Of a stretch of DNA of 64,000 nt, positions 1,279 to 39,827 are shown piece after piece. This DNA is from Cyanidioschyzon merolae (lineage: Eukaryota). The position numbers and the translations under genes are program-made. The DNA lies in assembly GCA_000091205.1 (NCBI GenBank), contig AP006494.2; one strand, written 5' to 3'. Position 1 is the stretch's first letter. The number at the start of each line of letters is the position of its first letter. The notes under the pieces were generated by a model, which worked only from the letters and a program-made list of their open reading frames with translations, ran no database searches and was not told where the DNA came from.

Positions 1279-1551
1279 TCGACTTGTGCAGCGCTCTCGA
1301 TCCAAACTTGTTTCTATGTTTTTAGCCCCGTGATGTAAACACACCTGGTAGCCCGTGACGCCATCTAAAACCGCTAGTAGAACACAGCGCAAGCTTTCGT
1401 TCTAGGGGGAATTCCAGGCACGCTGGTTTGTCGCAAGCGCTTGATGCGGCTTCGCTTTGTACGCAGCCGCCGGCTCAGAGCGTCTGCGTTACCGGAATGG
1501 AGAAGAGAACGCTATCGATGCCCAGAGGGAAGAGACTTTACTGTTTCCGTC

Positions 1552-1766
1552 GATGCTTCCGTTTTTACCAGCTCCGTGCCAAAAACTTCCCCAGAACAAT
1601 AAAGGTGTGATCACTCTGACGACTTGCTGAGAACCGCGCCCCTTGCAGGCGCTCGGCGATGCTTCCGTTTTTACCAGCTCCGTGCCAAAAACTTCCCCAG
1701 AACCATAAAGGTGTGATCACTCTGACGACTTGCTGAGAACCGCGCCCCTTGCAGGCGCTCGGCGCT
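1552..1766. repeat. Two tandem copies of a ~107-bp unit (gatgcttccgtttttaccagctccgtgccaaaaacttccccagaac[a/c]ataaaggtgtgatcactctgacgacttgctgagaaccgcgccccttgcaggcgctcggc)
   Basis: Direct visual match of 1552-1658 with 1659-1766, with one substitution. The repeat lies about 280 bp downstream of the kinase stop codon. Confidence 0.85.
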
Positions 1767-3919
1767 GCGCTAGCTGTGCAGTCGCCGTCGACATACCGTA
1801 AGAGGAAGGCGTGGCCATGCCTACACGGGCTGCGCTTCCAGTCTCATCGCCGCGGTACCAGCATGACCTCGTCAACGGCACCGTTGCTACCGAGCGCGCT
1901 CAACGTCATCTCAGCGCTTTCTATGAGTGCACCAAGACAGAGCGGCAGCGATAGGCAATGAGACGGACCTTTCCATGAGGTACAGCACACGGTGCTGTGC
2001 TGCGCGTGGCCTGCATGCTCCCCAAAGACATAACTGGACAGAGGGTTTTTAGCGGCGCCAAGGTACAGCAAAGCACAGCAAAACGAGGCAAGGTACGGCT
2101 CTGTTGCAATGATGCCGAGCGAGCCGCGAAACGCGCTGGGAACGGTACAGTAGGCAAGCGGCGCGCGTGCTCCCCTATGCCCTAGTTATCGTAAAGTAGA
2201 ACACTGAAGTACTCGCTGTGTTCCCGCTTTTCAATTTTTCCAGAGTTGGTCTAGAAATACGGCATAGAAACTCGAAGTTCAGGAATGAATTCGAATGGAC
2301 GACTATGCAAATGTAGAATTCTTGAATGTTTTCTCGGAGTATTGTGTACGATGCTTTGCCACCGGAATTTGTTACGTAATCGTCATGATTCGCGTCGCAC
2401 TCGAACCCGGATTCGTAAAGTAACCGATATCGTTATGCGATGCTTGCGTACTAGCGTCGACTCATGTCCTGGCTGTAGGTGCAGCATGCCCAAATCAAGC
2501 ATTGTATGGAATTCGATCCTTCTGTTGCAAGGCCACTCGAGGCTGAAGCATCTTGCGCCGCCTAGTAGACGAGAAAAGCGAAAATGCTCGACTTCTTCTG
2601 TGAGCGACTTTATGACCTACTCATGCTGATAGCGTACTGAACGTCTCATGCCGAATACTCGATTCTGCTCGAAATACAAACGCTTTACACTGTCTGGTTA
2701 TTGATGAAATCGGAAATGAGCGCAGTATAACCATGCCTCTCACAGGGTATGTCGGTTGGGATCGTCTGTCTTCGGTTTGCACGGAAAATGGTCTTCGAAT
2801 TGCAGTTCAGTGAGCCTAGCGGTCAGTGGCTGTAGAGCGTGCATGTCGCTTCGCCTGAAACGAGCCTAAACGAATCGGAACTCCTCGACTTGATGTCTAA
2901 CCTGAATTTTCCTTACGATATGTGTTTAATCATGGATAACATCGTGTTCCATAAATCCTCTATCGAACGGAAATGCGCACACTTTCGCATATGCAGCGGA
3001 CCGGGCACCTGCCTTGGGGATCGCCTCGAAGAAGTCCTTGATCGTAGGACGCGGCACTCTGTGCGGATACAGAGGAAAACAGCGCTGGGAGCCTTGCGTT
3101 CACGTCAACCGCATGTACCGAGCGATGAAGCGCGCTGTCGTGCGACTCTGGGCGGCGCTCGGAGCCGCAGAAGGTCTAGTGCATCCCTGGGAGCACTTGA
3201 TCGCAGTCACTTGTCACCGCTGGAAAGCGCGCATGGAGACCGTCTGCATAGTAGGCGAAACAGGTGAACGAAACCTGGATCAGAACTTTTGCCTGTGCGA
3301 GGAACCCCCAGAGAACAACCGGAAGCGGCGGAAACGGGCTTTCATGCTGCGATCAGTATCCACGACTGATTCCAACAGAATTTGCGGGATAGGTAGGACC
3401 GGCGTATTCGAAGCGCGAGACAAGGGAGAGGAAAATGAACCGGTCGCAGAAAAAGCTTGCCATGGCTGGTGTTGATGACAATGCTGAGCGAGCCATACGT
3501 CAGTGTGTGTGTGTGTGCGCTCGTGCTATGTGAGAGCGCCCGTCCCACGGTATTCCGACATGAGTGTACGGCATGCAGGACGATACCGGAATGTTTTTTT
3601 CTGCGGTGAGAGGTCGACGCATCGATCCAGGGATCTGTAGCGAGTGCGATGCTCCTGCGTATCGATCGATGCAAACAGTGCGCGGGCCCAGTGCCCCCAG
3701 TGCTCTACGAACCATAGACCAGACTTCACTTTGTGAATAATGGTTTGTTCGCACGACCTTCCCAAGTATAGGTCCTACTGTGAGTGTCTAGAATGGCGCT
3801 AGTCGTAGCAGCAGCACTGCGGGCCGCTGAATGCAGACAGATCGGTTTCACGAGTCCCCGTCTGGCGCCCGCTCGAACGTCGATTCTCATCAGGGAAACG
3901 GATCACTACGGGCGCTATG

Positions 3920-5370
3920 AGATCGGCCTCAGAAGTTTTTGTCTTTCAACTCAGTTTCGTGGCAAGTCTGCTGCGGTGTGCAGTAGGCGGTTGAAATCTC
4001 CATGGAATGTACTGTACCGATCGTAGACGAATCGCCAATAGAATATGTTGTTTGCTGAACAGTGCACGGAGGGTTTCATTTCTCCATCGGATCAGTGATA
4101 CCACAATACCCATATGGTTGAGGAACACTGAACGAAGCAAGTACACGTGGTCTGCATTAAAACAACCGATATTCTCGAAGACTGCGACCTGTTAGTGGTA
4201 TAAACCAACCCACCGGACACGTTCCGGAAAGCGAAATGAACAATAGTAGGCAGCACGGGCGCCGCTTTTCTCAATTGCCTGTTCGCGTGATCCTGAAAAC
4301 ACTGGGATGCAGTCGGAATAAACTTCTGGTTCACGAACGGACATCTTCCACCAAAATCGGAACGAGAGCGTTCTCAGAATGTCGCGGTCGGTATGAAGCA
4401 GAGCATCATCGGTTTGTTTTACCGGTCGATGAGACTCGCTTCGGAAAAAGACGGTCCGAGCGTATATGGGTATTCGTGGCGGGGGCGCCCCCTTCTATGT
4501 ACAATCAAATTCGATGAGGACGATGACATCAACTGTCCTAGATGTAGTGGATTCTAGTGGCGGCCGCAGTTTCGCTCGTAGGCAAGGCTCACACAACAGC
4601 ATCTACATGCTTAAATCATTGAAGACATTTGCCTCTGACGTTTGATCACGTTCGTCCATTGGATATCGAGGCATCTCACTCTTCGCTTTACGTAACTGCA
4701 TTTGCTGCGCGTGCCGGAGGTAGAGCCGGTCTTTTCTTCCCTGTACGCCTAGTGCCTTAACTCCATCGACGGAGCGTTTCCATCGTGAAACGTAATGATC
4801 GCTCTAGTAGGCGAATCGTTGAAGCGTACATCACACGGTGACACGTTGACACATACCGTCTTTTACCAGCAAGTGCTTCTCCCTTTAGGATGGTTCTCAC
4901 CCAGGCACATAAATAAGTGCGTTCATTTTAGAAAAATAAGGGATGAGCTCGGACGTACATTTCAAAAGGTCGAGTTTGAGCAGAGGCAGTGGAGCGCTTC
5001 GGCTATAGAAAACTACGAAGCGCTGACCGAAGAGCAAATGGAAAGGAGGGCGAAAGCTCGTGGATTGCTTGCACCAGTGAGTACAACGAATGATGGCAAG
5101 AAACGTATGGAGTTCGTGAACCGAGACTTTAACGCCGCCATCAATATCAGGAGATGTGCCGTGGTGGAGCATAGACCTCCAGAGTGGACAAGAAGGTGTT
5201 TTGTTGGACAACCTCCCAAAGTCGAACTATATGAGAAAAAATTTGAAGCAGTAGAAGGTGGCCTGTCCCAAAAGACTGCAAGGCATCTGCACGTCAGTTG
5301 GCTACGTTTCCTCCAAGGCGCGTTGCCGCTACTACTGTGCACCGCTGGCGACGTTCGACTTTTGAATGGC
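3920..5370 (+). mobile_element. Composite repeat copy: HTH-like small ORF (4007-4195) plus non-coding segment plus Fanzor/TnpB-like C-terminal fragment; second copy at 29885-30950 (-)
   Basis: Nucleotide-level homology to the reverse complement of about 29885-30950 over more than 1 kb (for example gtatatgggtattcgtgg, gatgaggacgatgacatca and cgtagacgaatcg blocks). The peptide MYCTDRRRIANRICCLLNSARRVSFLHRISDTTIPIWLRN matches MYCIDRRRIVYKNYCLLNSARNTAFLLQVSHTTVFKWLRN on the other copy. Confidence 0.6.
4795..5299 (+). pseudogene. Fanzor/TnpB-like nuclease, C-terminal fragment (zinc-finger remnant plus RuvC-III)
   Basis: EEQMERRAKARGLLAPVSTTNDGKKRMEFVNRDFNAAINIRRCAVVEHRPPEWTRRCFVGQPPKVELYEKK aligns residue-for-residue with the 39354-39740 ORF. 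RDFNAAINIRR is the RuvC-III signature of TnpB/Cas12/Fanzor. The stop codon is lost and the ORF runs on into flanking DNA. Confidence 0.65.
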
Positions 5371-6781
5371 TATTGGCTGCATGGAGCAAACTCGAAAACG
5401 ACGGCGGACGGGATGTTTTCATACCCTCGGCTTTGACTGGAGACAAGCGCTCGCGACTGCCTTTATGCCACCAGAACCACGAGGCTTTTCCGCAGCCGCG
5501 TGCCAACGCGCAACACGTTGGCAGACGGTACAGCCTCGAGCTCGTCGACGGACGCTTTCAGAGCGTCGGCTACAAATGCTATACGTCAGCCGTCGAGAGT
5601 TTCTGTGGCAACTCGCAGCGGGCGCGGCAACGCTGGGCTTTCACAGTGTGAAAAAACCTGTGGCGCCAGCGGCTTCAAACTCGGCACCACCGGCGCCCGT
5701 GAATGGGCGCTTGGCACCACTGGGTGCTATCTTCGACACGATGATCGGCTCTTTTCTACCACCGCGACCTGAGCGACTCTTATCGAGGCGAATTCGGCAT
5801 AAAGGAGCACGCTCTGTTCTCTTGGTCGGGGAGACACACACGGACCGACAACACCATCGGGTGCAACTGGCGTTGCTGGACTCGTTTGTGAAGCATGTTC
5901 GAGGTCAGCGGAATGAGTCGATTGCAGGAGCTCCAATTGCGATCGGCATGGAGCATTTCTATCGGCAGCATCAAGTGCATCTGGATCGGTACATTGCGGG
6001 CAAGATTGAGCTACGACAGTTACTCGCTATTACTCGTTTCGAACTTACCTTTGGGTATAGCGCGCAACTTTGGCAGGATATTTTGGAGTATGCACGGGAA
6101 AACCGTATTCAGGTTGTTGGTCTCAATACTCCGTTCGAATTGGTGCAGCTGGTTGCCCACTACGGCCTGGATCACTTACCAGAACGTTTGTATGAAGTGC
6201 TTCCTCGCGATATGGATGTGCATGGTAATGCTGCACACCGTGAGCGTTTTATTCAGAGGATGAAAGCGTTGGGGGTGGAAGCGCATGGTCCACTCATTAA
6301 CGACGAGGCAGCACTGCAGCGAATGTATGAATCGCAGGTGCTCTGGGACGAATACATGAGCGAATCGGCGGCCTTGTGGCTAGAGCGGAACCCCCGCGGT
6401 CACTTGTGTATTTTTGCGGGTAATGGTCACGTCGAAGGCCGTGTTGGGATTCCAGACCGCCTGACTCGTCGTTCTGGGAGGCCGACCTTCACCGTCGTGC
6501 CGTATACGGTGCCGTTCCAATCAGACGGCTGGCCCGATATACCGCATCCCGGCAACAGAGATGTCGGAGATTGGCTCTGGTACCTGCCTGTAGGATCTGG
6601 GGGTGCCGAATCTGACGAATCGGACCCCAAGTCGCAGCGACAGCAACGGTTCGGGGAGCGTTTCGGCTATCGAATCGCACGCAGTACCGAGTCCGACATG
6701 AGACTGATGGGGCGAGGCGCAGCCAGAACCATTCAGAGAGGTACGCAGACGAAATCTGTGGACGAGCCGGACTGGGTATGA
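5366..6781 (+). CDS. ChaN/Tiki-like (haem-binding uptake / iron-regulated family) protein with twin-arginine-type signal peptide; the true start may be a downstream Met
   Basis: SRREFLWQLAAGAATLGF (RR followed by a hydrophobic h-region) at about 5585-5640, preceded by an approximately 70-aa basic leader. VLLVGETHTDRQHH and a GNGH motif are typical of the ChaN/Tiki/TraB GxxH fold. Confidence 0.55.
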   Translation: MAIGCMEQTRKRRRTGCFHTLGFDWRQALATAFMPPEPRGFSAAACQRATRWQTVQPRARRRTLSERRLQMLYVSRREFLWQLAAGAATLGFHSVKKPVAPAASNSAPPAPVNGRLAPLGAIFDTMIGSFLPPRPERLLSRRIRHKGARSVLLVGETHTDRQHHRVQLALLDSFVKHVRGQRNESIAGAPIAIGMEHFYRQHQVHLDRYIAGKIELRQLLAITRFELTFGYSAQLWQDILEYARENRIQVVGLNTPFELVQLVAHYGLDHLPERLYEVLPRDMDVHGNAAHRERFIQRMKALGVEAHGPLINDEAALQRMYESQVLWDEYMSESAALWLERNPRGHLCIFAGNGHVEGRVGIPDRLTRRSGRPTFTVVPYTVPFQSDGWPDIPHPGNRDVGDWLWYLPVGSGGAESDESDPKSQRQQRFGERFGYRIARSTESDMRLMGRGAARTIQRGTQTKSVDEPDWV

Positions 6782-7683
6782 ACGCGCGCGACTCGAGCTT
6801 TCGATAAGCGAAACAAGAGCAGCGCCACCAGACAGACTTGAGCAACTCGTCCTACCGGTTGTCAGCGTGGCACGGAGGACATGTTTATGGAGCCTTTCAC
6901 GGTGCATGCTAAGGAATCTAGCGAAACGTGACTAGCCTCTGGTAACTGCGGAGCGCTGGAGCGCCCAAGCGGTGTTGCGGCAGCGCAACAGCGCGCGCTT
7001 CGCACTGGATGAAACAGCTACGCGGGCGGCTGGATCGGTTCACCAGTCATACACACGCAAGACGATTGGAATCTTGGCTAGAAGCACGACGCTAGCGCAC
7101 ACATTGCAACGGATCAGGAGCTGTGCTTCATGACCCGTGATGGGTATGATTGATGACTCGAGCGGCCTGTGTAGACAGACATCCGACATAAGAGGGAACA
7201 AACGGGATACGAGGAAATCAAGTTCCAATGATTTGCAACTCCTATCCTGTGGAATCAGCTTTTCGCGCTCCTGCGTATACAGCCTGTCGATGCCCGCTCG
7301 GCGAAAAGGACCTGCAGAAAAGCAGCAGTGCGAAAGCGCGGGCGTGAAGCGTCACGACCTGGACATGACGCGCACGAATGACGACTTTGCTGGCAAGCCA
7401 GGCATGCTGGGTCCATCGCCTCTGATCCAGATCAGTCATCCATCGCGTTAAATATTTTTTTGTTGTTGTACGGGTAAATACATGATGCACAGTTACATGA
7501 TAATGCCGGCTTGCGTTCTTCTACATTCTGTGAAACAAACTGCACGGATTCCAGACGAGCGCAAGCGATGTCCATCCAGAGCCCAGCGGAGCGGATTGCA
7601 TCCTCCGGTGACGCGGACCAGTCTACGACGCAGTGGCGCTTGACGTGGCTCCATCGGCCTATCGAACATCTCCTGTAAGCAAT

Positions 7684-8736
7684 TCAGACTGGGAAGCCTA
7701 GCAGCGTCGCGACCTGAACTGCTAAATCACTGAACATGGTTTGCACGGCAGTGTCCTGCGCCATGCGACCTTGGTCGGCGGCCTCACAAAGTGTCTTGTT
7801 CAAAGGCAAGTGAGCGAGGACTTGTACGGAAGCGGCTTGTGCGAGCGCTGCGGCACGCTGTTCCGGCGCGCCGAAAACCTCCTCTTTATGCTGACACCGC
7901 GAGCACTCCACATATGCCATGTTCTCGACGATGCCGAGTACCGGTATCGAGAGGCGAGCAAGCGCCTCCAAGCCCCTGCGAACCTGAACCTCTACCAGCT
8001 GTGGCGGTGTGGTGACCAGAATCGCTCCCTGCACCTTGAGCTGTTGCGCCAAGGTCAGGAGAACGTCGCCGGTCCCCGGCGGGGTATCCACCACCAGAAT
8101 ATCAAGAGGCGCCCAGTCCACGTCGAAGAGCAGTTGCTGGACCGCTCTGGTGGCCACAGGTCCTCGCCATACCAACGCTTCGGTTGCTCGTTTCTGCAAA
8201 GCGGCCAGCCCGAATACTTTGAGCCCAGACTCGGTGACAAGAGGAACGAGTGGTCGACTCGTCTTGGGGTTGCGATCGCGGCTTGCTTGTGTGACGCTCG
8301 CCCGCAACAAGTGTAGAACCGATGGACCGTAAATGTCCGCGTCTAGGATCCCGCAACGTAGTCCAAGTCCCTGCTGCAACGCGCTTGCAAGACCCACTGC
8401 TACCGTAGACTTTCCCACACCGCCTTTGACGGCGCTCGAGAGCACAACCGCAGTCACGCCGGCAAGCACGCGTTTCTGGAACGGCCCGCTGACTGCAGCT
8501 CCCTGAGTCAAGTCTCGAAGCTGGAGAGGGGCGTGCCCGATCAAGCGTGAAAACACCGTGGTAGCTGGTGGCAGCCGCAGATATCGTGACAGCCAAGCCC
8601 GCTGCGTTGAGCAACCCCCGTACAAGTTCATGGGCTGGAGCGCTGGTACCCAGCAGGTGTTGCACGGGATACTGCGGACCCTGCTGGGCGCCCTGCTCGC
8701 GCCCTCAACCGCGCATAACCAGGCAGGGACGTGCAA
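7684..8736 (-). CDS. Mrp/NBP35/ApbC-family P-loop ATPase (Fe-S cluster carrier, HCF101/Ind1-like) with N-terminal extension
   Basis: AVKGGVGKSTVAVGLA Walker A (deviant), DADIYGPS, VVDTPPGTGD, and a CxxC motif (VECSRCQHK) characteristic of the family. An approximately 100-aa N-terminal presequence-like region is present. Confidence 0.8.
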   Translation of the reverse strand: MHVPAWLCAVEGASRAPSRVRSIPCNTCWVPALQPMNLYGGCSTQRAWLSRYLRLPPATTVFSRLIGHAPLQLRDLTQGAAVSGPFQKRVLAGVTAVVLSSAVKGGVGKSTVAVGLASALQQGLGLRCGILDADIYGPSVLHLLRASVTQASRDRNPKTSRPLVPLVTESGLKVFGLAALQKRATEALVWRGPVATRAVQQLLFDVDWAPLDILVVDTPPGTGDVLLTLAQQLKVQGAILVTTPPQLVEVQVRRGLEALARLSIPVLGIVENMAYVECSRCQHKEEVFGAPEQRAAALAQAASVQVLAHLPLNKTLCEAADQGRMAQDTAVQTMFSDLAVQVATLLGFPV

Positions 8737-9688: not shown

Positions 9689-12600
9689 CTACAGTCCAGA
9701 ACGCGACGTCTGTGACGCACTGTCCGAGCTCGACGCCACCGGGTGACGCCTGCTGGGGACGCTACTGCTCCGACCGCTGGTGGCGCTTCGTGCTCGACTA
9801 ACTCGAGCCATGTCGAGGTTCATCGCCTCGAGACTGTCCAGATTACGAAAGGAGAAATCGGAAAAAGCGGGATCTGCCAAGGTAAGCACGCATTGCGATT
9901 CACTCGATGAGGGTCTGTTTGCCTTGTAGCGTGCTCGTCGGCCAGATTTGGCAAGGTTCACATTCGGATCGCTATAACTCGCTTCTGGTGGCCTTTCCGA
10001 AGACGAAACCCCAGCGCTCGCCTGAACTGGTGCGCTGCCCTCGCGTCCTATATTGGAACGCGCTAGCGTAGCTCGTCGAAAAGGATCCACGGCGTTGTTG
10101 TTGTTGTTGTTGAAATCGTCGTCGTCGTCGTCGTCGTCGTCGTTCTCGATATCGCCCTCACTACACAGGTTCGAGTCGCTACTTGAATCTTCGAATAAAA
10201 GCATACCGTCGCTGGTATTCCAAACATTGCGCGTGGGTGTTGTTGCCGCAACAACTGCTACGCTCGTCGCGTCGCTACCACGCAAACGCACATTGGATGA
10301 ACGTAGAACGCTTGGACTGGTGCATACCGATGCCGATCGTTCTCGATTCTGTTCATCGGCGGACGTGCTGACCGACGGATCCCGTTCTGTTTCCGAAAGC
10401 CAGCCGCGTGTAGGCGCTCGTCGACGCAAACAATGCTGCAAGAGCTGCTCCCGGGAGCGTTGCCGTCGATTGCGTAGGGTCCGCATGTCGACGCGTCGCC
10501 ACCCTGTTTCCGTCGAGCAAGTCGCAGACGATGACCAGCTCGGTACTTCCGTCTGTTTCCAGTCCATTTCCGGATGCGAAGTTTCCGACTGAGTTCCAGC
10601 TGGCTCCGAAGGCATCGCCGAAGCCGCTGCACCAGTGTTCCCCGAGACTCCCACGGCATGAGGCGAATCCGGTACCGCGACGATTTGCGTCGCTCTACCC
10701 AAAGCGCCGTCGGAGTCAGTGCTTACGTCGCCTGTTCCTGCTATCGACGTCGCCTCTGAGAGCGTCTCCTGCCCCTGAGTGCGCGTCGTGTGAGCGATGG
10801 AGCAATCGGCGGATATCCGTTGCGTCTTGTCTGCATCGAGCTCATGCTCGGGTACCGTGTACGAGAGAGACCATCCCGGGCGGTGCCGATAGAGCCCGTC
10901 AGCGCATGGCGCATCTCGGACCTGATCCTCAATGCCTTCTGCCGAATCTGTTGCCTGGCTCGATGTTGTGATGCCGCTCACCACGATCTGGTCGCTTAGG
11001 GACGAGTTCTCCGCGTTCACTGCATGCAGCAACCGCTGCGGCATAGTTTCCGCTCCCGAACGGGACAAAGGCTCCATGGATACCCCTGCAAGCGCCGTAC
11101 CATCGCTCCAGCGACACGCTCGCTCTGCAACCAATACCGACTCGTTGTGTTCGCATGTCGTATCTATAGCACTTTGCTCTCGGACAGACGATGAAGATAA
11201 TACAGGGCGCTCGGCATCATGTGAAACGGCAGGCAAAGCCGGGATCCCCAGATCGAGCGCTCCCGATGCAGCACACGGCGACGAGCGCGGTGCCGGCTCT
11301 CGTATGCCGCCAGGCGCCGCTGGTGCTCTGGAGACACCGTAGCAGCACGCGCTGCTCGAGGTCGCAAGTGGCTCTGTGGAACAAACTTTCCCATATGTAG
11401 AACAGTGCATGCCGCACGCCGCAGTGCCCTCATCGGCGCTACGCCAGTCGCCATCCGTGGGATTTTCCCGCGGCCAGCAATCCGCCGTAGCGCACCAGCG
11501 CATCATGACCTTCTGTCCACCCTGTCGCATTTCAAGATGCGCTGCTACGTCACTCCAGCGAGGCTCCGAAGCGTGCACAGACTGTCCACCCTGTCGCATT
11601 TCAGGATGCGCTGCTACGTCACTCCAGCGAGGCTCCGAAGCGTGCAGAGCCTCGGATGACGCGATCGCTGCGGTGCGTGTCTCGGGGACACGCATCCGTG
11701 ACGACGACGACAACGACAACGGCACGGACGCAACATGCGACTTCGAGGCCGTCACCAGCAACGGCAATGCTTCTGCTCGTTCTACGTCGCCCAGGCCGTG
11801 CTCGCTAAGCGTTCTCATTAGTTTCTGGGTGCTCTCGTCGTCAGGAGAGAGCGATCCGACCGCTTTGCGCGACGAAAAGTAGCTGGTGTCATCGGCGGCA
11901 GCAAACTGGGGTACGAAAGCCGGTGGCTGATTCCTTACATGCTCAAAATCAACATCGCGGAAAAAGGGATGGGCTTTCACCTCTGCTGCACCACGAGCAC
12001 CCAGTCTTTTGGAGGGATCCGGCTCCAAAAGACGCTGAATGAGGTCACGTGCCTCGGCACTCATGGCCTCATCGACATCGTCAGGCCACTGGATTCGACC
12101 CGACAATATGTTCGAGAAGATGCCACGCACAGAGCTCGCGTGAAAGGCAGGGATGCCCACGAGGAGCTCAAAGAGGACAACACCGAGAGCCCACCAGTCC
12201 ACAGCGAAACCGTGACCCGTTCCCAGCAGCAGCTCGGGAGCCAAATAGTCGGGAGTGCCCAGCGGCGGCTCCACAGGTGCGACCACCGTGGTGCCGCCAA
12301 CCGGGCTACCCGATTGACTCTCGGTTGCCAACGTCTGAGGTGACGGAGAACGGACACCTCTGACTCCATTCGCCCACAAGTGCCCTGTGTGGCTCTCAAA
12401 CGGACCGGCATACCCAGATCCGCCAGTGCTCGCAGCAGCCGAAAACTGACCGCGTGCATCCGACGCTGTTAGGGTGTTTTGTCGCCCGGCTGTGCGTGTG
12501 CCAGCTTGTACGGAACTCGTGGTCGTGTCCACAAGACGCATATCCACGTCACGCTGCAGGGGTACTGTGGACGAGCCTCGCTGGGTCCTGACCTCGGAAC

Positions 12601-15600
12601 CCGATCCAGACATCACGCTGACGCTCATGGAATCCATGCACAACTGACTGGAGGGTACTCCCGATGCTCCATGCATCTGTTGAGGACCAGTACCGGCACC
12701 AGCAATCGCTCCCGCACCAACCGATGTATCATACCGCGGCTTAGTTGCACCGGAGATGGCGCTCAAACCACTGACCGGTGCCTTGGCGGAGCGAGCAACG
12801 AACCCCGCCGGTGATAGTGCCCGTTGCCACAGGGTGTCGGTGCCCGGCGACAGGCTCGCTCTCGTGCTCGCAGGACTGCTGTGCGGAAGATCCAATGCCC
12901 CCTGTTTGCTTAGACCAAAGTCGGTCAATTTGATATGTCCATCCCGATCGATGAGAATGTTATCCGGCTTGAGATCACGGTGAACGATACCCGCTTGATG
13001 CAGATATTCCAAAGCGAGTACGATTTCGGCTACGTATTGTCGAGCAACATCTTCATCGAGATAGCCGAGATTGCTCAAGAGCGAGAAAAGGTCACCCCCG
13101 GGCAGAAACTCCATCACCAGAAACAATTTGCGTGCCGACTCGAACGACCAAATAAAGCGGACTACAAACGGGTTCTGGATGGTTGCCAGAATATCCCTTT
13201 CTGCACGCACGCGTCGAACGAGGTTTTTGCGCACGAGTTCGGACTTTTGAAACACCTTGATTGCGTAGAGATCACCAGTGGTTTTCTTGGACGCCAAATA
13301 CACTCTTCCGAATGCCCCGCGAGAGATTGGCTTAAGAATGTCAAAGTCGCGAATACTGGGTACCGCCGGATGCAGATGCGGACTCGCACCCACTCGTAGC
13401 GACTGCCGGGACGGGGACACTTCAGCGCCCCCGGAAGACCGCAAGCGACTCGAAGACGAATCCGAGCGATGCTGACCCTGCTTCCGACTTTGACTCGCGC
13501 CGTGCGCTTCACAAAGTGCATCCTGGAGATGATGACGACGACGACGACGGCGACTCGAACCGGTATCGGAGGAGTGCGCTGCTTCCGCAAACGCGACACC
13601 AGTGTCGGTCTTCGCCGCGTTGCCGAAGCGGATGTCGCCACCGCGATGTACATCCTCAGAGACGAGGCCACGCTCAGCATCGCATGGAGAGGCGGAATCG
13701 GCTGCATCACGTGTTTTCCAGTGAACGTGATCACAAGGCTCAACCGTAGCAGCAGCAGCAGCAGCAGCAGCGATATCGCAATTACGAGCGCTATCATCAT
13801 CAACAACAGCACCGGCACTGGCACCGGCACCGGCATGATCATCATCCGCGGCAGCGTCTTCGCTTGTGCGGCAGGAGACATCCTCCGCTGGGCGGGCTCT
13901 GCGAAGATCACTGGTCAATGCTCCCGACTCGAGGCTGCCGTCGTCAGCGGCGACAATGGCAGGTTCAAACACTGCCGGTATCATGGAAAGCGCTTCAAGC
14001 TTTTGGCTCACCAGGCAGTGTGCTCGTTCGACCAGTGCCAGACACCAGCGAGAAATCGTCGAACTAGTCGTATTGGCAGTCGCTGCCTGGCAGGCTTGCA
14101 GGGCGTGTTCCAACCGAGAACGAACGGCTTCCAGTTTCGCGCGTGCAACATTCTCCTCTAGATTCGGACGAAAGCTTGCCATATCTGAATCCGTTCGCAG
14201 ACGTAAACAAGAGCGAACTTGCTCATAGCTCTGATTCTCGAGATCATCCAGGTCAGCGGGGACAAAGCTGCTGATTCTCGTGCAACTCTCCGACGGCTCA
14301 ACTGCTGCGGCGTAGAGGCAGAGTTTTGCCACGCGCGATAGCAGCGCCTGCTGCGCACTGTCCACAGAAGCAGTAGACACGTCGCCCGCGGGTGCTTCGG
14401 TGAACGCTGAAGAGGTCGCTGCGCGAGCCCCGTGTCGTCCCAGTTTCTCGAGCTGCTTATCGCAGGCAGCAATGAGCACCGCTGCACGCGCTCGCGCTGC
14501 ACAGCATTTGGTGTGCTCCTCGAAGATCTCACACGGGTAGACTTCCTCACAGATGCGGCAAATGAGATAGGCATACGGATCCGTGACTTCTTCGTTTTCT
14601 TCCACGGCGTCCGCGTCCTTCTCGATTGCCTCTTCGTCTTCGTTGGAAATGAATTCCGCTCCAGAACACGGGGATGGCGGCATCGCGGTTTGTAGTGAAA
14701 CTGGGGTTTGTGAGCGAGCCGCAGGTAGCTGGATCAGTTTCGCGGTGGTGTTCTCTGGTCGGTGCAAGCCGCCAGCGTCGGCTTCTGTTGTTCGCACTTT
14801 CGCTAGCTCATTGGTTTCGTTGTTGTTGTTGTTGTTGTTGGTGTTGTTTTCTGCTGCGGGCGCTCCTTTTTCAGATAGGTTAGAGACGTCGAATGGCCCA
14901 TGGACTCGGAGCGAAAGGTTTCCCTCACGACCAGTGGTTTGCAGCGCTCTCATCGCTCGGACTGGATGCACATGAATCGCCTCATTCCGGGCAGCTAGCG
15001 CGACCGTATCAGAGCTGTAGCCTCGCTGAGCTTGTGTCTTACCAGTCAGCAGGGTCGCAAGTACCCCAGCAGGCAGCGATGGACGCTCGGCGGGCGTGGA
15101 ACGCTGCGTCGCCTCCGAAGCTGCTGCTTGCAACCCGGGGGCGTTGCTGCTCCCCGAGTGTACCAGAGTCTGCGAAGAACTCGGTTCTGTCAAGCGTTGC
15201 GTGTGACGCGACTTGTCGTCGTCGTCGTCGTCGTCGGGTTCAGCGCGCAGTTGCGTCGTGTCTGCTTCCGACTTTTCTAGATGCGTCGCAGGCGCCAGCA
15301 CTGCGATTCTATTGGGGTCTCGTTCGACTCCCAGACGCATCGTAGTCGCTTGAGCAACGCCTTGTGCTCCTGTCTCGCGTGCATGTTGTCGTGGACGTAT
15401 GCTCGTAAATAAATGCACATCTGAATTCGCCAAGTTCGGTGGCGAGCGCGGCCTCGTTTCCATGGATGACAGGCATACCGAGGAAACACAACGACGCGGC
15501 GGAAACGTCCAAGCATCTCGTGCAACCGCTATCGAAGGCTGCGGTTTGGCCCAAGGCGCCGGTTCATGAACACGTGCTGCAGCATTCGAGTCTTCCAGTG

Positions 15601-17599
15601 CGCGCTGCGCTTCCGATGTAGGTTCCGTTCGCTCGTAATACGCTGCAGCATACGAGTCTTCCACTGCGCGCTGTGCTCCTGCTGCAGGTTCAGCGACATG
15701 GTTGCTCAGGCTCGACTTGAGCGATATCCGGCCTGCCGCTACTGTAGCAGTTGACAGCTGCGTGCCCGGCTCTATAAAACGCTCATCCGCGGTTCCCGAT
15801 GACCACGACGAGGCATGAGCAGCGTCAGCCGGATCTATGTGCTCCGAACCGAAACCCTTCCCAGTCGACTGAGACATTCGCGTTCGGCGGGTGCCGCTCC
15901 CGCGCTGGCTGTTGCTCTCCGCCCGAAATTCAATGCGCTCAGCGGCTGCTTCGAGGAAACGCGTCAGCCTCGATAGCGTGAAGAGGAGGTGAATCACCGG
16001 CGAGGAGCGATGCGTCCACGAGACAAAGCTTACATGCATCCGCATTCGTTGCAGTTCATTCACGTACTCATGCAGATTGCCGCTGAATGCTATTACGGTT
16101 GAATGGCCCCGTGATACAAACGTTTCCGCCAATAACGCATCAGCGGACGTTGCCAACACGGCGGATGCAATATCCATCATACGGCGAACAGCTTTGCTGA
16201 GCTCGGGTGTCTCCTGCCCCTGCTGAAGTTCTGCTTCGCATTGTGCCATAAACTGCGCCAGCTCGTGATCAGTCTCCTTCTTGATCGCCTGTAACCGTCC
16301 ACGGATAGTTGACACGTTACCAGAGACAGCAAAATAACCCAAAGCACCCGCTAATAAGGCAGAATACGCATTGCCCCCCGAGGCGGCCGCAGTTGCAGGT
16401 GCCGCACCGGTGCCGATCGGGCTCGCCCATGACGCTGTGCGGTGTAGGCGTCTTGTAGTGCGTCGTCCCGCTTGTGTATGGCCCTCCATAAGACGCACCT
16501 GGTGCCACTGGAGCGTCGGCGTTGTAGCCTGGTCCGATGGACCGAGCCATCCGGTGCCGGCAGTGGACCACGATGTTGCCGCAACGCCGCCAGCGCCGAT
16601 CATTCGCCTCCAAGCGGATGCCACTGGGATTTCCCATCGATTTTGCGGCACTTTTTCATGCTCTTGCCGATGATGATAATGGTACTGATGGTGCTGATGA
16701 GCATCATGCTCGCTCTCACGATATTGTCGTCGGTGCGAATACCGATAGCGTAGGCGATGCGGGTCGCATCCCGCCAGTGACGTTGACTCGGGTGGCTCCA
16801 TCCGAAGGAGCATCACGTCTTGGTTGCTGCGCAGTTCGGTCGGAAGCGATGCACTCACGATGTGAGCGTCAGCGGGCTCAGAGTCGCTACTGGGCGCTTC
16901 GCAGCGTGCATCACTCACCAGTAATCGCTGTGACTTGGCAAACGCCTCCGATCGACGTCTTTCCCCAGAGGCTTTGCGTCGTTCGATCCGGGTAGTCTGA
17001 TCGCTCATCCGTGCCCTTCCAGTAGACTCCGCTTCGTCATCATCATCATCATCATCATCACCGTCACCATCGTGATCAGCCAGTTGTTGCAGCCGAGCGA
17101 AAACGGGAACGTCTCCGGTCGCCGCTGGGAACCCATCCGCTTCAACCGCTGCCTGCAGTGCTGCCACGTTGTCAACGCTTACAGGAGTCGAGCTCGCGTG
17201 CTTTATTGTCTCGTTAGAGAGCATCCAACTATCTTCGCGGCTTTCGGCGCCAGCGAGATAACCTTCCAAGCCGCTCGAGTCTGAGCTCCAGCCCGAGTTC
17301 CGTCTGAGGTCGAGCGCGTAGCGCTCCGCCAAGAGCTGCGCTGTTGTCTGTGGTCGTTCAACTGGAACGCTTACACCGACAGCGGTCAGCGCGCTCTGTA
17401 GCGACTGAACCTGGCGCTCGGTGGCGGCATCGCTTACCGGGTCAGCGACAGGCACGTCGCTTGCCTGCGCACCTGTGTCTACGCAAGCGCACTCACTACC
17501 TGGGACGTGCACCGGCTCATCAACGTGCGCACGCTCGCTCTCGTTCGCACCTGCTCGCATCCAAAGACGCGATGACGTCCACGATCGCAGGTTCCACAC
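9689..17599 (-). CDS. Giant (2636 aa) Greatwall/Rim15/MAST-like AGC protein kinase with long low-complexity arms
   Basis: A single uninterrupted 7.9-kb ORF. The kinase domain lies at about 13350-11900 ([16 protein letters not shown] ... [12 protein letters not shown] ... DFGLSK). An approximately 215-aa insertion separates DFG (about 12910) from GTPDYLAPE (about 12250), the hallmark of Greatwall/Rim15. [15 protein letters not shown] tail. A Cys-rich [21 protein letters not shown] motif sits at about 14470-14580. Confidence 0.8.
10094..10143. repeat. Coding microsatellite (GTT)n then (GTC)n inside giant kinase gene (encodes poly-Asn/poly-Asp on minus strand)
   Basis: gttgttgttgttgttgttg followed by gtcgtcgtcgtcgtcgtcgtcgtcg, read directly. 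Similar runs occur at 14820-14850, 15215-15235, 17040-17065 and 13760-13790. Confidence 0.9.
11513..11650. repeat. In-frame 69-bp tandem duplication (2 copies) inside giant kinase gene
   Basis: ctgtccaccctgtcgcatttca[a/g]gatgcgctgctacgtcactccagcgaggctccgaagcgtgca repeated back-to-back. It yields [12 protein letters not shown][P/L]EMRQGGQ twice in the protein. Confidence 0.8.
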
Positions 17600-18799: not shown

Positions 18800-19915
18800 G
18801 AGAGTATGTTTTTCTCAGTTCAATTGTGTGTCAGCTCTCAAGTGAGTGTATTCGAGCGATTTTTCGCGGGTTGTAGCAGAAGCTTTCAAAGTGCGTTGTT
18901 TTGAAAAATAGTCGAGATAAATCGGGAAAAATATGGTTGTAGAAGTGGAGGATCCTGGAGGGCCCCGTATCGCCGGCTGCCGCAAAAAAAAACCGAAGAA
19001 CAGTGCCAACCAAAGAGGAACAACACAGGACCAGGAAGCAAGGCGGCGAGGGCCGACACCAAAACCTGCAGGGAAAACGACAGTACGACGAGATGGAAGT
19101 GAAAGCCTGTCTTTTACGCTGCGTCAAGGATCCGTGCAGGGCAAAGTTGCAAGAGGGCATCAGAAACCGTGTCGATTCGTACTCCAGGAGTATTGGAAAG
19201 GCCTGTTCAGGAATGATGCATGTGGTGAAGGTGATGTGTCGCGACGTGACGGACATCCAAACCGTCGAGGTTCCGGACGAGATTTTCGGCAAGACCTTCA
19301 TTCGTCACCTGATGGTTGGAACAGGGGAAACGTCGAGGAGAAATGAGCGAGTTCGTGCCCTCCACGAAAATTACACCAAATACCGCTCCAACGATACTCG
19401 ATACACGGGAGACTCGCGTATTTACGAATACGGGGCGATCAAGTACCTCACGAACCTGAAGAACCACGTGACCATGAACCTCAAAGGCTTCATGATACGC
19501 TCCGTCTTTGCCCTCGACCCGGAGCTGTCTCGCATAGGGATACGGGCCATCATCGACGGCATCAAGAACGATAGTCGGAATGAACAGGAGATCGAATTTG
19601 CCGACAAGAAGACATCACGCAGAGGAAAGAATGAACCTTCTGGAATCCCTGCGGCTATTCAGGAGCACCGTGCAGACTCGGGGCTTGTCAACCCAGCGGA
19701 TAAAGTATCAGAGATGAAAAAGATGACGAAAGATTTTATCCCCGCGTCCAGCGCTATTCCGTGTTTTTGGAGCGAGAACTCGAACGCCAGGCGGAGATGG
19801 AGCTCACTAGGGGAATACGTGAAGATTCGGAGAAGCGGAAGGCTTTCGTAATGGGTAAGCGCTTCAACGTCATTCCATTATGCAACAGCAAGTAGCACTT
19901 TGTGCGAATCGACGC
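18800..19915 (+). mobile_element. Fanzor-like element, 5' part only (left UTR plus N-terminal about 275 codons), truncated at a junction with an unrelated left-end repeat
   Basis: The 5' non-coding block (ttcaaagtgcgttgtt...) and coding sequence match 37250-38330 of the longer copy. YDEMEVKACLLRCVKDPCRAKLQEGIRNRVDSYSRSI matches YDEMVVKTFLLGHMKDPYKEKLRDAIETRVDSYSKSI, and IKYLTNLKNHVTMNLKGFM matches MKYITNLKNHLTKNLERFM. There is an internal frameshift near 19700. Confidence 0.6.
19093..19915 (+). pseudogene. Fanzor-like N-terminal coding fragment (frameshifted, truncated)
   Basis: Shares a conserved ATG (gagATGgaagtg versus gagATGgttgtg at 37481) and about 55 percent aa identity with the 37481-38330 region. 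The track ORF start at 19003 is a GTG, not ATG. Confidence 0.55.
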
Positions 19916-19917
19916 TA

Positions 19918-20140
19918 GCGTCCTTGAATGCACAAAACGACCAGTGCATCCGAGAACAGGTAATGGAACATGGAGGTAGGGCGCATCATGATGGACGCTT
20001 TCCCAAATGCTTGTACCCAGCTCGCAATCCTGGGTCCCTGGTCAACGTAAACGTTTTTTGAACAAAAATGCCTGAAGCAGCTGCATCGGGACTGCAATGC
20101 TGCCAGTATCGACCTTCGACAGTTGATAACGGAACTGGAG
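19918..20140 (+). repeat. Left-end-type repeat, copy A (solo), family shared with 36900-37080 and 57055-57330
   Basis: Three-way alignment: aaacgacc..ccgagaa..ggtaatg..ggaggtagg[g/t]gc..at[g/c]a[t/c]ggacgctttccc[a/g]aa..cg[c/a]aat[c/t]ctgggatcc[c/a]tgg..aacgt..ttg..aaaaa..., extending to aacggaactgg. Confidence 0.55.
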
Positions 20141-29510: not shown

Positions 29511-29884
29511 GTTCTCTTAAAGACTCGGTATAGGCACAGTGGGTGCGTCGTCCTTCGCCCCAGGAACCGGCTCGGTACGCACGCTGTCGCCCGTTGCGAG
29601 CACAAGTGCAAACCCAGCTGCACAACGCGTATCACTGCGTTCTGCGTTTGCGCACACCGGGGATGCAGCGCAGCCGCTCGAGCACTCGGACGTACCACTG
29701 TGAGAGTCGTCTGCCTGGACGCAGTCGAAAGCGTCCCGTCGGATGAATATATGTTCTTGCTTGTCTCCCATCTTCTTCTTCGTGGTCGTATGCTCTTCTT
29801 TGCTCCATAATCGGAGACAAGAGGATTTTCCGGTTTTTCGGGCATCTGGGGGTGACGGCGCGCCAGGATCCTCTGCTTGCATGT

Positions 29885-39740: not shown

Positions 39741-39827
39741 TGACGATTTGTATAGCGCGCGTTCGCCGCCACTACTGTACACTGCCAGCGACGTCGTTCG
39801 ACTTTCGAAGGGCGGTGACACAAGACC

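What the first reader, a model, noticed from the sequence alone, without database searches (positions are those of the whole stretch)
5576..5660. Bacterial-type twin-arginine (Tat) signal on a ChaN/Tiki-like protein: hint of a plastid/thylakoid-lumen client and of an algal host
The ChaN-like ORF carries SRREFLWQLAAGAATLGFHS (S-R-R-x-F-L followed by a hydrophobic core and AxA-like site) about 70 residues from the first Met, behind a basic Ser/Arg/Thr-rich leader typical of a transit peptide. In eukaryotes, Tat signals of this form are essentially restricted to thylakoid-lumen proteins, and to mitochondria of a few protists. Riboflavin synthase, OGG1, the Mrp/NBP35 ATPase and the ACT protein also have N-terminal extensions relative to bacterial homologues. 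Together with the SHAQKYF MYB, these point to an intron-poor, GC-rich microalga. The Fanzor right end abuts this gene's ATG, so element insertion may have reshaped its 5' end.
Basis: inference. Interest (0 to 1): 0.5.

Follow-up and report, generated by a model that had tools for sequence, protein, structure and literature searches.

The report
Red-alga thylakoid-lumen ChaN protein, Tat signal
The window is Cyanidioschyzon merolae chromosome 12, and the flagged motif is a real, conserved twin-arginine export signal on an uncharacterised ChaN-fold protein that red algae and their plastid descendants most likely send into the thylakoid lumen, which is an expected kind of signal in an alga.

Summary
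Bases 5576-5660 encode MLYVSRREFLWQLAAGAATLGFHSVKKP inside ORF 5366-6781. That ORF is identical to the annotated C. merolae 10D protein BAM80821.1, a 471-aa "hypothetical protein, conserved" with a PF04187/ChaN domain.

- **Conservation.** The RR motif plus an uncharged hydrophobic stretch is conserved in every red-algal homologue examined: 4 Cyanidiales, 3 other unicellular or filamentous reds and 26/26 florideophyte-type sequences. Its codons vary synonymously. About half of the homologues from red-plastid lineages keep it.
- **Plastid routing.** 23 of the 26 florideophyte-type proteins start with the rhodophyte transit-peptide Phe motif. Laminaria adds an ER signal ending AQA|F. This tripartite and bipartite architecture argues for the plastid lumen, not the mitochondrion.
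- **Bacterial relatives.** They carry Sec or lipoprotein signals instead.
- **Caveats.** The Tat HMM score is just under its cut-off. No clear AxA cleavage site exists in Cyanidiales. The C. merolae leader shows no coding-type codon usage.
- **The annotated ATG.** ATG 5366 lies in the last bases of a degenerate Fanzor1 (CMe-1A) element. It is ACG or AGG in other copies, and ACG in other strains.

Function is unknown, and all localisation is inferred. This is an ordinary kind of signal on a new predicted cpTat client family.

The parts
3973..5376 (+). 3' part of a degenerate Fanzor1 (CMe-1A-type) transposable element that fills the kinase-to-ChaN spacer. The left boundary was not determined. 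The spacer is about 4.1 kb here and 530-650 nt in relatives.
   Evidence: 4943-5370 is 78% identical to 39381-39813, and 3973-4938 is 68% identical to 30880-29908 on the minus strand. Homology stops at ...CGTTCGACTTTTGAATGGC|. Independent copies in metagenome loci read ...GAACGGCGTTTG, so the end lies at 5370-5376. C. merolae CMe-1A has about 150 copies of roughly 3 kb and no TIRs (PMC3627910). Relatives lack the insertion.
5119..5154 (+). RuvC-III-like motif NRDFNAAINIRR of the decayed Fanzor/TnpB ORF 4795-5436
   Evidence: Read from the sequence. The fuller copy at 37826-39813 has GADPG, DEFRTS and NRDFHAAVNI. No Pfam model reaches significance.
5366..5368 (+). Annotated start codon (M1) of BAM80821.1. 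It is TE-derived and strain-specific.
   Evidence: It lies in the last bases of the repeat. Other copies read ACG or AGG there. Strains L087, L088 and L177 at this same locus read ACG. That fits a CpG-to-TpG change. The in-frame stop TGA at 5363-5365 is also TE sequence.
5381..5575 (+). Leader of 65 aa from M6 (M34 is at 5465): the putative plastid transit peptide. It is Arg-rich, net positive and weakly constrained.
   Evidence: The frame is open with in-frame Met codons in all four Cyanidiales (70, 153, 204 and 84 codons). An in-frame xAF[VAM]xxP-like motif (TAFMPP, 5456-5473) lies 37-50 aa before the RR in all four. Two Cyanidium strains differ at 23 of 90 leader residues with no indel or stop. 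Against: the codon-usage score is -0.047 while coding windows average 0.175, and SNP density is 14.6 per kb, like intergenic DNA.
5576..5578 (+). Met71, conserved 4-7 residues before the RR in Cyanidiales and Stylonematophyceae. It is possibly a fossil prokaryotic start, and it is the point where the coding-type signature begins.
   Evidence: MLYVSRR, MVWSTRR, MHWSTRR, MSEERRTRR, MQISRR and METSRR. It is absent in florideophytes. The codon score rises to 0.166 from here on.
5588..5605 (+). Twin-arginine motif S-R-R-E-F-L (n-region)
5600..5641 (+). h-region FLWQLAAGAATLGF: uncharged and moderately hydrophobic (best 12-aa Kyte-Doolittle mean 1.32). The structure model predicts a helix here.
   Evidence: AF2 helix 6-16 in M71 numbering, at low confidence.
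5642..5710 (+). c-region with basic residues (HSVKK), followed by a Pro/Ala-rich disordered linker. There is no clear AxA site.
   Evidence: Read from the sequence. pLDDT is below 50 for residues 16-44. Basic residues after the h-region are conserved in Cyanidiales (VKQ, LRRR). Two Cyanidium strains differ by an in-frame 3-aa indel in the linker.
5711..6598 (+). ChaN/Tiki-superfamily globular domain. The Pfam match spans 5810-6463. Conserved residues are GETH (5828-5839), E126 (5951-5953) and GNGH (6419-6430).
   Evidence: PF04187. The profile hits PDB 2G5G at E 2e-17. The AF2 core has pLDDT mostly above 90. Foldseek's top hit is 2G5G (E 1e-13, TM 0.79), followed by erythromycin esterases. Conserved columns are listed.
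6599..6781 (+). C. merolae-specific disordered C-terminal tail, plus the stop codon
   Evidence: pLDDT is below 50 for residues 342-401. The tail is absent from most homologues.

Best explanation
Gene 5366/5381-6781 encodes a nuclear-encoded plastid protein with a two-part presequence.

1. A poorly conserved, Arg-rich transit peptide takes the precursor through the envelope. It starts at M6 or M34, not at the annotated M1.
2. Stromal processing then exposes a twin-arginine signal: SRREFL, the uncharged h-region FLWQLAAGAATLGF and a basic c-region.
3. That signal hands the already folded, probably cofactor- or metal-loaded ChaN-fold domain to the thylakoid Tat translocase, whose TatC subunit is plastid-encoded.
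4. The domain ends up in the lumen. In Cyanidiales no AxA site is evident and a Pro-rich linker follows. The signal may therefore stay uncleaved and tether the domain to the lumenal face.

**What the domain does.** It keeps the His/Glu residues shared by ChaN, Tiki and erythromycin esterases. Its likely chemistry is tetrapyrrole binding or metal-dependent hydrolysis.

**Shown:** the motif, its conservation, the fold, and the presequence architecture of the homologues.
**Inferred:** import, Tat use, lumenal location and biochemical function.
For: - **Motif.** It is present and unique in the window.
- **Selection on the peptide.** Its codons change synonymously among four Cyanidiales.
- **Conservation of RR.** It is invariant in 26 of 26 florideophyte-type homologues. 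It is present in Timspurckia, Bangiopsis and Purpureofilum. About 19-21 of roughly 40 N-complete algal-clade representatives have it.
- **Plastid-type leaders.** Phe occurs at residues 2-8 in 23 of 26. Laminaria has AQA|F. P0011 and P0012 have ER signal peptides.
- **Taxonomic range.** Named members are confined to red algae and red-plastid lineages: browns, Nannochloropsis, Pleurochrysis and Durusdinium.
- **Fold.** The domain begins only at residue 46 after Met71, preceded by a helix and a disordered linker, as expected for a signal peptide. The fold is ChaN.
- **Gene under selection.** It has 5.0 variant sites per kb, against 13-21 in flanking non-coding DNA.
- **Machinery.** Plastid tatC is found in red algae (PMC5217408).
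Against: - TIGR01409 scores 14.9 bits, below its 16.7 cut-off. PF10518 gives no hit for the C. merolae peptide.
- There is no canonical AxA site in Cyanidiales.
- The leader's codon usage is unlike coding sequence. No in-frame coding window scores as low, and 26% of intergenic windows score as high. Its polymorphism density matches intergenic DNA.
- No Phe lies within the first 8 residues from M1 or M6.
- The native promoter was displaced by the TE, so the transcription and translation starts are unknown.
- Brown algae and others replaced RR with RQ, RE or a single basic residue. Tat use is therefore not obligatory for the family.
- No proteomic or imaging evidence was found.
Confidence: 0.68

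Rival explanations
1. The protein is plastid-targeted and lumenal, but it is delivered by Sec or spontaneous insertion. The RR would be a tolerated vestige, and the hydrophobic segment would act mainly as a Sec-type lumen-targeting domain or a permanent membrane anchor.
For: Roughly half of the algal-clade representatives have only one basic residue before the h-region. Browns read TRQ or TRE. HMM scores are borderline. Bacterial relatives use Sec or lipoprotein signals. Cyanidiales have no AxA site.
Against: RR is invariant in all 33 red-algal sequences inspected despite synonymous codon turnover. Basic c-region residues (KK, K, RRR), which are typical of Sec avoidance, are conserved in Cyanidiales. 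The h-region is only moderately hydrophobic and rich in Gly and Ala.
Confidence: 0.12
2. In C. merolae, translation starts at Met71 because the Fanzor insertion removed the promoter and upstream coding region. The product would have a bare Tat-like N-terminus and no transit peptide. It would then be secreted or ER-routed, cytosolic, or reach the plastid by an unconventional route.
For: A coding-type codon signature begins exactly at 5576, and the leader scores like non-coding DNA. Leader SNP density equals that of intergenic DNA, and all 4 leader variants are non-synonymous. The TE ends 5-11 nt before M6, and M1 is TE-born and polymorphic. Met71 is conserved.
Against: The frame stays open, with in-frame Met codons and an AF-x-x-P-like motif, in all four Cyanidiales. 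The Cyanidium leader diverged 26% with no indel or stop. Other red algae clearly encode transit peptides ahead of the same signal. Transit peptides are known to evolve fast and to have skewed composition. Without a transit peptide, the RR motif would have no evident function to preserve it.
Confidence: 0.1
3. The protein is mitochondrial. An Arg-rich presequence would take it to the matrix, and the mitochondrial TatC system would export it to the intermembrane space.
For: The leader is Arg-rich, net +11, with few acidic residues. Red algae other than Galdieria keep a mitochondrial tatC (PMC4316638).
Against: Homologues carry plastid-specific features: the rhodophyte N-terminal Phe motif in 23 of 26, and ER signal plus Phe in ochrophytes. 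The family is confined to plastid-bearing red-lineage organisms. From my own knowledge, the only mitochondrial Tat client known is the Rieske protein.
Confidence: 0.06
4. The motif is a chance occurrence, with no targeting role, in an N-terminal disordered region.
For: Shuffled windows give such a motif 0.13 times per 64 kb. HMM scores are below threshold.
Against: It is conserved at the homologous position across red algae, with synonymous codon changes.
Confidence: 0.02

Closest known systems
ChaN of Campylobacter jejuni (PDB 2G5G; Pfam PF04187 Cofac_haem_bdg)
   Same: Same Pfam family (154 bits). Profile-to-sequence E is 2e-17. It is the best structural match (Foldseek E 1e-13, TM 0.79 on the target). 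Both share the GExH, E and GxxH positions.
   Different: ChaN is a bacterial lipoprotein, and the bacterial relatives sampled here have Sec or lipobox signals. The algal protein has a transit-peptide-like leader plus an RR signal and no lipobox. It also has an extra IFDTxxGSFLPP N-terminal strand motif and a C-terminal DW-x-W motif specific to the algal clade. Identity in the structural alignment is about 12%. Haem ligands were not checked.
Thylakoid cpTat substrates of plants and algae (PsbP/OE23, PsbQ/OE17, Hcf136, Rieske PetC), named from my own knowledge
   Same: Bipartite presequence logic: an envelope transit peptide followed by an RR-containing lumen-targeting signal, with a folded or cofactor-bearing passenger. 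An uncleaved-anchor variant exists (Rieske).
   Different: The passenger fold (ChaN/Tiki) is not among the classical lumen clients. The motif matches the full bacterial consensus S-R-R-x-F-L. Cyanidiales and Stylonematophyceae keep a Met just before it. No AxA site is evident in Cyanidiales. Nothing has been tested experimentally.
Tiki / TraB / erythromycin-esterase superfamily
   Same: Same fold class. EreC and BcR135 are the next structural hits (E 4e-9). The conserved His/Glu positions are retained.
   Different: Global TM-scores are low (0.32-0.35). There is no evidence of esterase or protease activity.
Arabidopsis RER5/RER6 (DUF3411 + DUF399)
   Same: They carry the same Pfam domain (DUF399 = PF04187). 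A secondary source says they are associated with the thylakoid lumen (PMC12114778, citing lumen proteomes).
   Different: They are roughly 745-aa fusion proteins with a DUF3411 membrane domain. They appeared in none of my searches. Their relationship to the algal clade was not tested, and the primary papers were not available.
Fanzor1 element CMe-1A of C. merolae (Bao & Jurka 2013, PMC3627910)
   Same: A repeated element without TIRs, with TnpB-like RuvC motifs.
   Different: This copy is decayed by many stops and frameshifts. Its last bases supply the annotated start codon of the neighbouring gene.

Membership tests
Twin-arginine (Tat) signal peptide | n-region motif S/T-R-R-x-F-L-K | tested here: met
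   S-R-R-E-F-L-W matches 6 of 7 positions. RR is invariant in 26 of 26 florideophyte-type homologues and present in 7 other red-algal homologues.
Twin-arginine (Tat) signal peptide | Uncharged, moderately hydrophobic h-region of about 12-20 residues directly after the motif | tested here: met
   FLWQLAAGAATLGF has no charged residue, and its best 12-aa KD mean is 1.32.
Twin-arginine (Tat) signal peptide | c-region with basic residue(s) and an AxA peptidase site | tested here: inconclusive
   Basic residues are present (HSVKK; orthologues read VKQ or LRRR). No AxA site lies next to the h-region in Cyanidiales. Other algal homologues do have AxA (GAA|M, ANA|D, AWA|D).
Twin-arginine (Tat) signal peptide | Score above the curated cut-off of TIGR01409 or PF10518 | tested here: not met
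   14.9 bits against 16.7 (E 0.025), with no PF10518 hit for C. merolae. Bangiopsis scores 16.9 against 16.7 on TIGR01409 and 21.8 against 22.7 on PF10518. One florideophyte-type homologue has a precomputed PF10518 hit.
Twin-arginine (Tat) signal peptide | Transport dependent on TatABC and delta-pH, abolished by RR-to-KK | not testable with these tools
   Needs import assays.
ChaN / Cofac_haem_bdg (PF04187) | Pfam model above the gathering score | tested here: met
   154 bits against 27.7, residues 149-366.
ChaN / Cofac_haem_bdg (PF04187) | ChaN fold | tested here: met
   AF2 core pLDDT is above 90. Foldseek's top hit is 2G5G with TM 0.79.
ChaN / Cofac_haem_bdg (PF04187) | Cofacial haem binding through the ChaN ligand residues | not tested
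   Ligand positions were not mapped, and no biochemical data exist.
Rhodophyte plastid transit peptide | N-terminal extension ahead of the mature or signal region, net positive | tested here: met
   65-70 aa, 14 Arg, net +11. An extension is present in all red-algal homologues.
Rhodophyte plastid transit peptide | Phe within the first few residues (PMC9407449, PMC2222254) | tested here: inconclusive
   From M1 or M6 the first Phe is at position 18 or 13. From M34 it is at position 8. An internal TAFMPP aligns with MMLNTAFVRCP of the closest relative. 23 of 26 florideophyte-type homologues meet the criterion.
Rhodophyte plastid transit peptide | The region is translated | tested here: inconclusive
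   The frame is open in four species, and two Cyanidium strains show no indels. However, the codon score and SNP density look non-coding.
Fanzor1 / TnpB-like element (CMe-1A) | Dispersed repeat encoding a protein with RuvC I/II/III motifs | tested here: met
   Four copies or fragments lie in the window. Motifs GADPG, DEFRTS and NRDF[NH]AA[IV]NI are present. The literature describes the element (PMC3627910). Pfam models do not detect it.

The most novel reading that the evidence does not exclude
In C. merolae the Fanzor insertion replaced the gene's promoter and 5' UTR, and the leader is decaying. The protein would now be made from the conserved 'fossil' Met71 as a nuclear-encoded precursor with a naked prokaryote-style Tat signal. 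That would be a transit-peptide-less route, or a relocalisation, for a protein that is lumenal in other red algae. A milder form of the idea is dual initiation giving two destinations.
Probability: 0.1. Interest if true: 0.6.

Novelty: new member of a known kind. Interest (0 to 1): 0.3.

Why it matters
**If the inference holds.** Red algae and the lineages that inherited red plastids would share an uncharacterised lumenal ChaN/Tiki-fold protein delivered by the Tat pathway. That would add a haem- or metal-handling, or hydrolytic, activity to a compartment whose proteome in the red lineage is poorly known. C. merolae is transformable, so the prediction can be tested directly.

**Annotation.** The locus shows an annotated start codon that was created by a CpG-to-TpG change inside the terminal bases of a transposon. 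This is a caution for N-terminal annotation and for targeting prediction in this model genome.

**What is not surprising.** A Tat-type lumen signal in an alga is expected, and the host identification is trivial once databases are consulted.

Tried and rejected
- **Chance origin of the motif:** rejected on conservation.
- **Inheritance of the RR signal from bacterial donors:** none of 80 named bacterial relatives, including about 24 cyanobacteria, has RR; they have Sec or lipobox signals. One unnamed representative, P0193, has RR plus a lipobox. Inheritance is therefore not excluded.
- **Cyanobacterial (endosymbiotic) origin:** an NJ tree puts the algal clade nearest Planctomycetota, Myxococcota and Nitrospirota, not cyanobacteria. 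Bootstrap support for the clade is only 0.06-0.2, so this stays unresolved.
- **Logan contig L001 (window 5315-6853) as a transcript defining the TSS:** I cannot tell RNA from DNA, and the contig may simply break at the repeat.
- **Open-frame test for the leader:** weak, because off-frames are also long in this GC-rich DNA.
- **Pfam detection of the Fanzor ORFs:** no hits.
- **The idea that CMe-1A right ends generally abut gene starts:** true for 2 copies in the window (5381 and 39840), but not for 2 independent metagenome copies.
- **Literature on the locus, on ChaN in plastids, and on Tat in C. merolae:** nothing relevant.
- **Unavailable resources:** the primary RER5/6 and lumen-proteome papers are not held, and the AFDB fold library is not installed.
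- **Exact-sequence look-up of the window ORF among contigs:** failed, although the protein is BAM80821.1.
- **Rfam and tRNA scans of the window:** empty.
Full report
**What is there.** Window 5576-5660 (+) encodes MLYVSRREFLWQLAAGAATLGFHSVKKP within ORF 5366-6781 (471 aa). The ORF has a strong PF04187 (Cofac_haem_bdg/ChaN) match at residues 149-366 (E 7e-45). It is identical to C. merolae 10D protein BAM80821.1/XP_005536857.1, annotated 'hypothetical protein, conserved'. Eight other window ORFs were looked up, and six are letter-identical to C. merolae 10D chromosome-12 proteins: CML234C, CML240C, CML245C, riboflavin synthase and two more. The host is therefore settled.

**Is the motif more than chance?** A relaxed motif followed by 15 uncharged residues occurs once in the six-frame translation. 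Shuffles produce it 0.13 times per window. The Tat HMMs are borderline: TIGR01409 gives 14.9 bits against a cut-off of 16.7, and PF10518 gives no hit.

Conservation decides the matter.
- The three other Cyanidiales orthologues are syntenic, in the order kinase, ChaN, ParA/Mrp, giant kinase. They read TRREFLW or TRREFLL.
- Their R, R, E, F and L codons differ synonymously (CGT/CGA/CGC, GAG/GAA, TTT/TTC, CTG/CTA/CTC).
- Timspurckia (SRRSVLL), Bangiopsis (SRRDFL) and Purpureofilum (SRRDFL) keep the motif.
- In 26 florideophyte-type homologues, both arginines are invariant alignment columns.
- In an exhaustive HMMER search, about 45 representatives form an algal clade at 35-46% identity. They share an IFDTxxGS[FY]LPP motif. 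Roughly 19-21 of about 40 N-complete members have RR directly before an uncharged hydrophobic stretch, and the rest have a single basic residue.

**Where does the protein go?** All evidence is by architecture.
- 23 of the 26 florideophyte-type proteins begin M-x-x-x-F-[LIV]-x-P. This N-terminal Phe is the characteristic feature of rhodophyte plastid transit peptides (PMC9407449, PMC2222254). A 35-60 aa leader and the RR signal follow.
- Bangiopsis begins MMTFVVSG.
- Laminaria has an ER signal ending AQA|F, then a transit peptide, then VTREGFLVGTTAIVAAGL. This is the tripartite presequence expected for a lumen protein of a complex red plastid. P0011 and P0012 are similar.
- Named members come only from red algae, brown algae, Nannochloropsis, a haptophyte and a dinoflagellate.
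- tatC is a standard red-algal plastid gene (PMC5217408).

The mitochondrial alternative is not absurd, because red algae other than Galdieria keep a mitochondrial tatC (PMC4316638). The plastid-specific leader features argue against it.

**The passenger.** An AlphaFold model (pLDDT 78, core above 90) shows the following, in Met71 numbering:
- a short helix over the h-region;
- a disordered Pro/Ala-rich linker (residues 16-44);
- a compact domain (46-341);
- a disordered, species-specific tail.

The domain matches C. jejuni ChaN best (2G5G; profile E 2e-17, Foldseek E 1e-13, TM 0.79). Erythromycin esterases and HopBA1 follow. E86, H88, E126 and H285 (GETH, GMEHF and GNGH) are invariant or nearly so. 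These positions are shared with ChaN itself. They therefore do not discriminate haem binding from hydrolysis.

Tat routing would fit a passenger that folds or acquires a cofactor in the stroma. This is inference.

**Origin of the signal.** Eighty named bacterial relatives at 28-38% identity have Sec or lipoprotein N-termini, and none has RR. They include Myxococcota, Planctomycetota, Nitrospirota, Aquificota and about 24 cyanobacteria. One unnamed representative has RR plus a lipobox. NJ trees place the algal clade away from cyanobacteria, but with negligible bootstrap support. The origin is unresolved.

**The 5' end.** The kinase-to-ChaN spacer is 530-650 nt in relatives and about 4.1 kb in C. 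merolae. The extra DNA is a decayed Fanzor1/CMe-1A element (PMC3627910).
- 4943-5370 is 78% identical to 39381-39813.
- The fuller copy at 37826-39813 shows the RuvC motifs GADPG, DEFRTS and NRDFHAAVNI.
- Homology ends at ...TTCGACTTTTGAATGGC (5370). Independent copies read ...GAACGGCGTTTG, which puts the end at 5370-5376.

The annotated ATG (5366) and the stop before it are therefore transposon sequence. Other copies have ACG or AGG at that position. Three other C. merolae strains have ACG at this very locus. M1 is thus a recent CpG-to-TpG creation. The next in-frame ATGs are M6 (5381, 5-11 nt past the element), M34 (5465) and M71 (5576). The only out-of-frame ATG, at 5413, opens a 7-codon ORF.

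**Is the leader translated?**

For translation:
- The frame is open, with in-frame Met codons, for 70, 153, 204 and 84 codons in four species.
- An in-frame xAF[VAM]xxP-like element lies 37-50 residues before the RR in all four. In the closest relative it sits at the very N-terminus (MMLNTAFVRCP).
- Two Cyanidium strains differ at 23 of 90 leader residues without any indel or stop, while the folded domain is about 99% identical.

Against translation:
- A codon-usage log-odds score trained on 12 window genes gives -0.047 for 5381-5575. Coding windows give 0.175 +/- 0.096 and none scores as low. Intergenic windows average -0.13.
- The score jumps to 0.166 exactly at Met71.
- Leader SNP density among strains is 14.6 per kb. 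That matches intergenic DNA (13-15) rather than the rest of the gene (5.0). Only three sites are involved.

Transit peptides are notoriously unconstrained, so I favour a translated leader starting at M6 or M34. This is the weakest link, and it needs TSS and initiation mapping.

**Comparison and verdict.** The thing works like a classical thylakoid cpTat precursor with a new passenger. It is a member of PF04187 by sequence and fold. Membership of 'Tat signal' is met on motif, h-region and conservation. It is not met on the curated HMM cut-off, is inconclusive for the cleavage site, and is untested for transport.

A land-plant precedent for a lumen-associated DUF399 domain (RER5/RER6) is reported second-hand (PMC12114778) and could not be verified. 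No paper on this locus or on plastid ChaN proteins was found.

The finding is correct but ordinary in kind: a predicted new client family of a known pathway in a known model alga. The transposon-born start codon is a small but instructive annotation curiosity.

Noticed in passing
window 5363-5376: The annotated start codon (ATG 5366) and the preceding stop of the ChaN-like gene lie in the terminal bases of a Fanzor1/CMe-1A copy. Other copies read ACG or AGG there, and other C. merolae strains read ACG. The start is therefore a CpG-to-TpG-born, strain-specific codon.
   Followed up: yes
window 37826-39840: A fuller Fanzor1 copy: a 537-aa ORF with GADPG and DEFRTS, then a frameshift, then NRDFHAAVNI. 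It ends about 27 nt before the first ATG of a reticulon gene (PF02453). Two of two right ends in the window thus sit just upstream of a same-strand gene start. Two independent copies in metagenome loci (L100, L105) do not, so this is not a general rule.
   Followed up: partly
window 19438-19952 and 29797-30880 (minus strand): Further diverged fragments of the same transposon family: 50-58% protein identity to the N-terminal part, 68% DNA identity to the middle part.
   Followed up: no
window 1548-1768: A 115-nt direct tandem repeat (1548-1662 and 1654-1768, 97% identical) just downstream of the kinase gene, at or near the left side of the TE-containing spacer.
   Followed up: no
window 5576-5578; homologues P0002, P0003, P0118, P0136, P0137: A Met is conserved 4-7 residues before the RR in Cyanidiales and Stylonematophyceae, at the junction of leader and signal. 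It looks like a fossil prokaryotic start codon. It is absent in florideophytes.
   Followed up: partly
homologues P0008, P0010, P0138 (brown algae): Brown algae changed RR to RQ or RE while keeping the hydrophobic domain and the plastid-type ER signal with Phe. This suggests a switch away from strict Tat dependence in that lineage.
   Followed up: no
window 5642-5710; L003 vs P0118: Cyanidiales have a 20-30 aa Pro-rich linker and no AxA site after the h-region. Two Cyanidium strains differ there by an in-frame 3-aa indel. The signal may be an uncleaved anchor.
   Followed up: no
window 7684-8736 (minus strand): The neighbouring NUBPL/Mrp-type P-loop ATPase (PF10609) has a roughly 60-aa N-terminal extension before the P-loop. 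Its position is syntenically conserved next to the ChaN gene in all Cyanidiales examined.
   Followed up: no
window 9689-17599 (minus strand): A giant 2636-aa kinase ORF with poly-Asp and poly-Asn runs and a duplicated '[18 protein letters not shown]' segment.
   Followed up: no
whole window: No Rfam family reached its gathering score, and no tRNA was found in 64 kb.
   Followed up: yes
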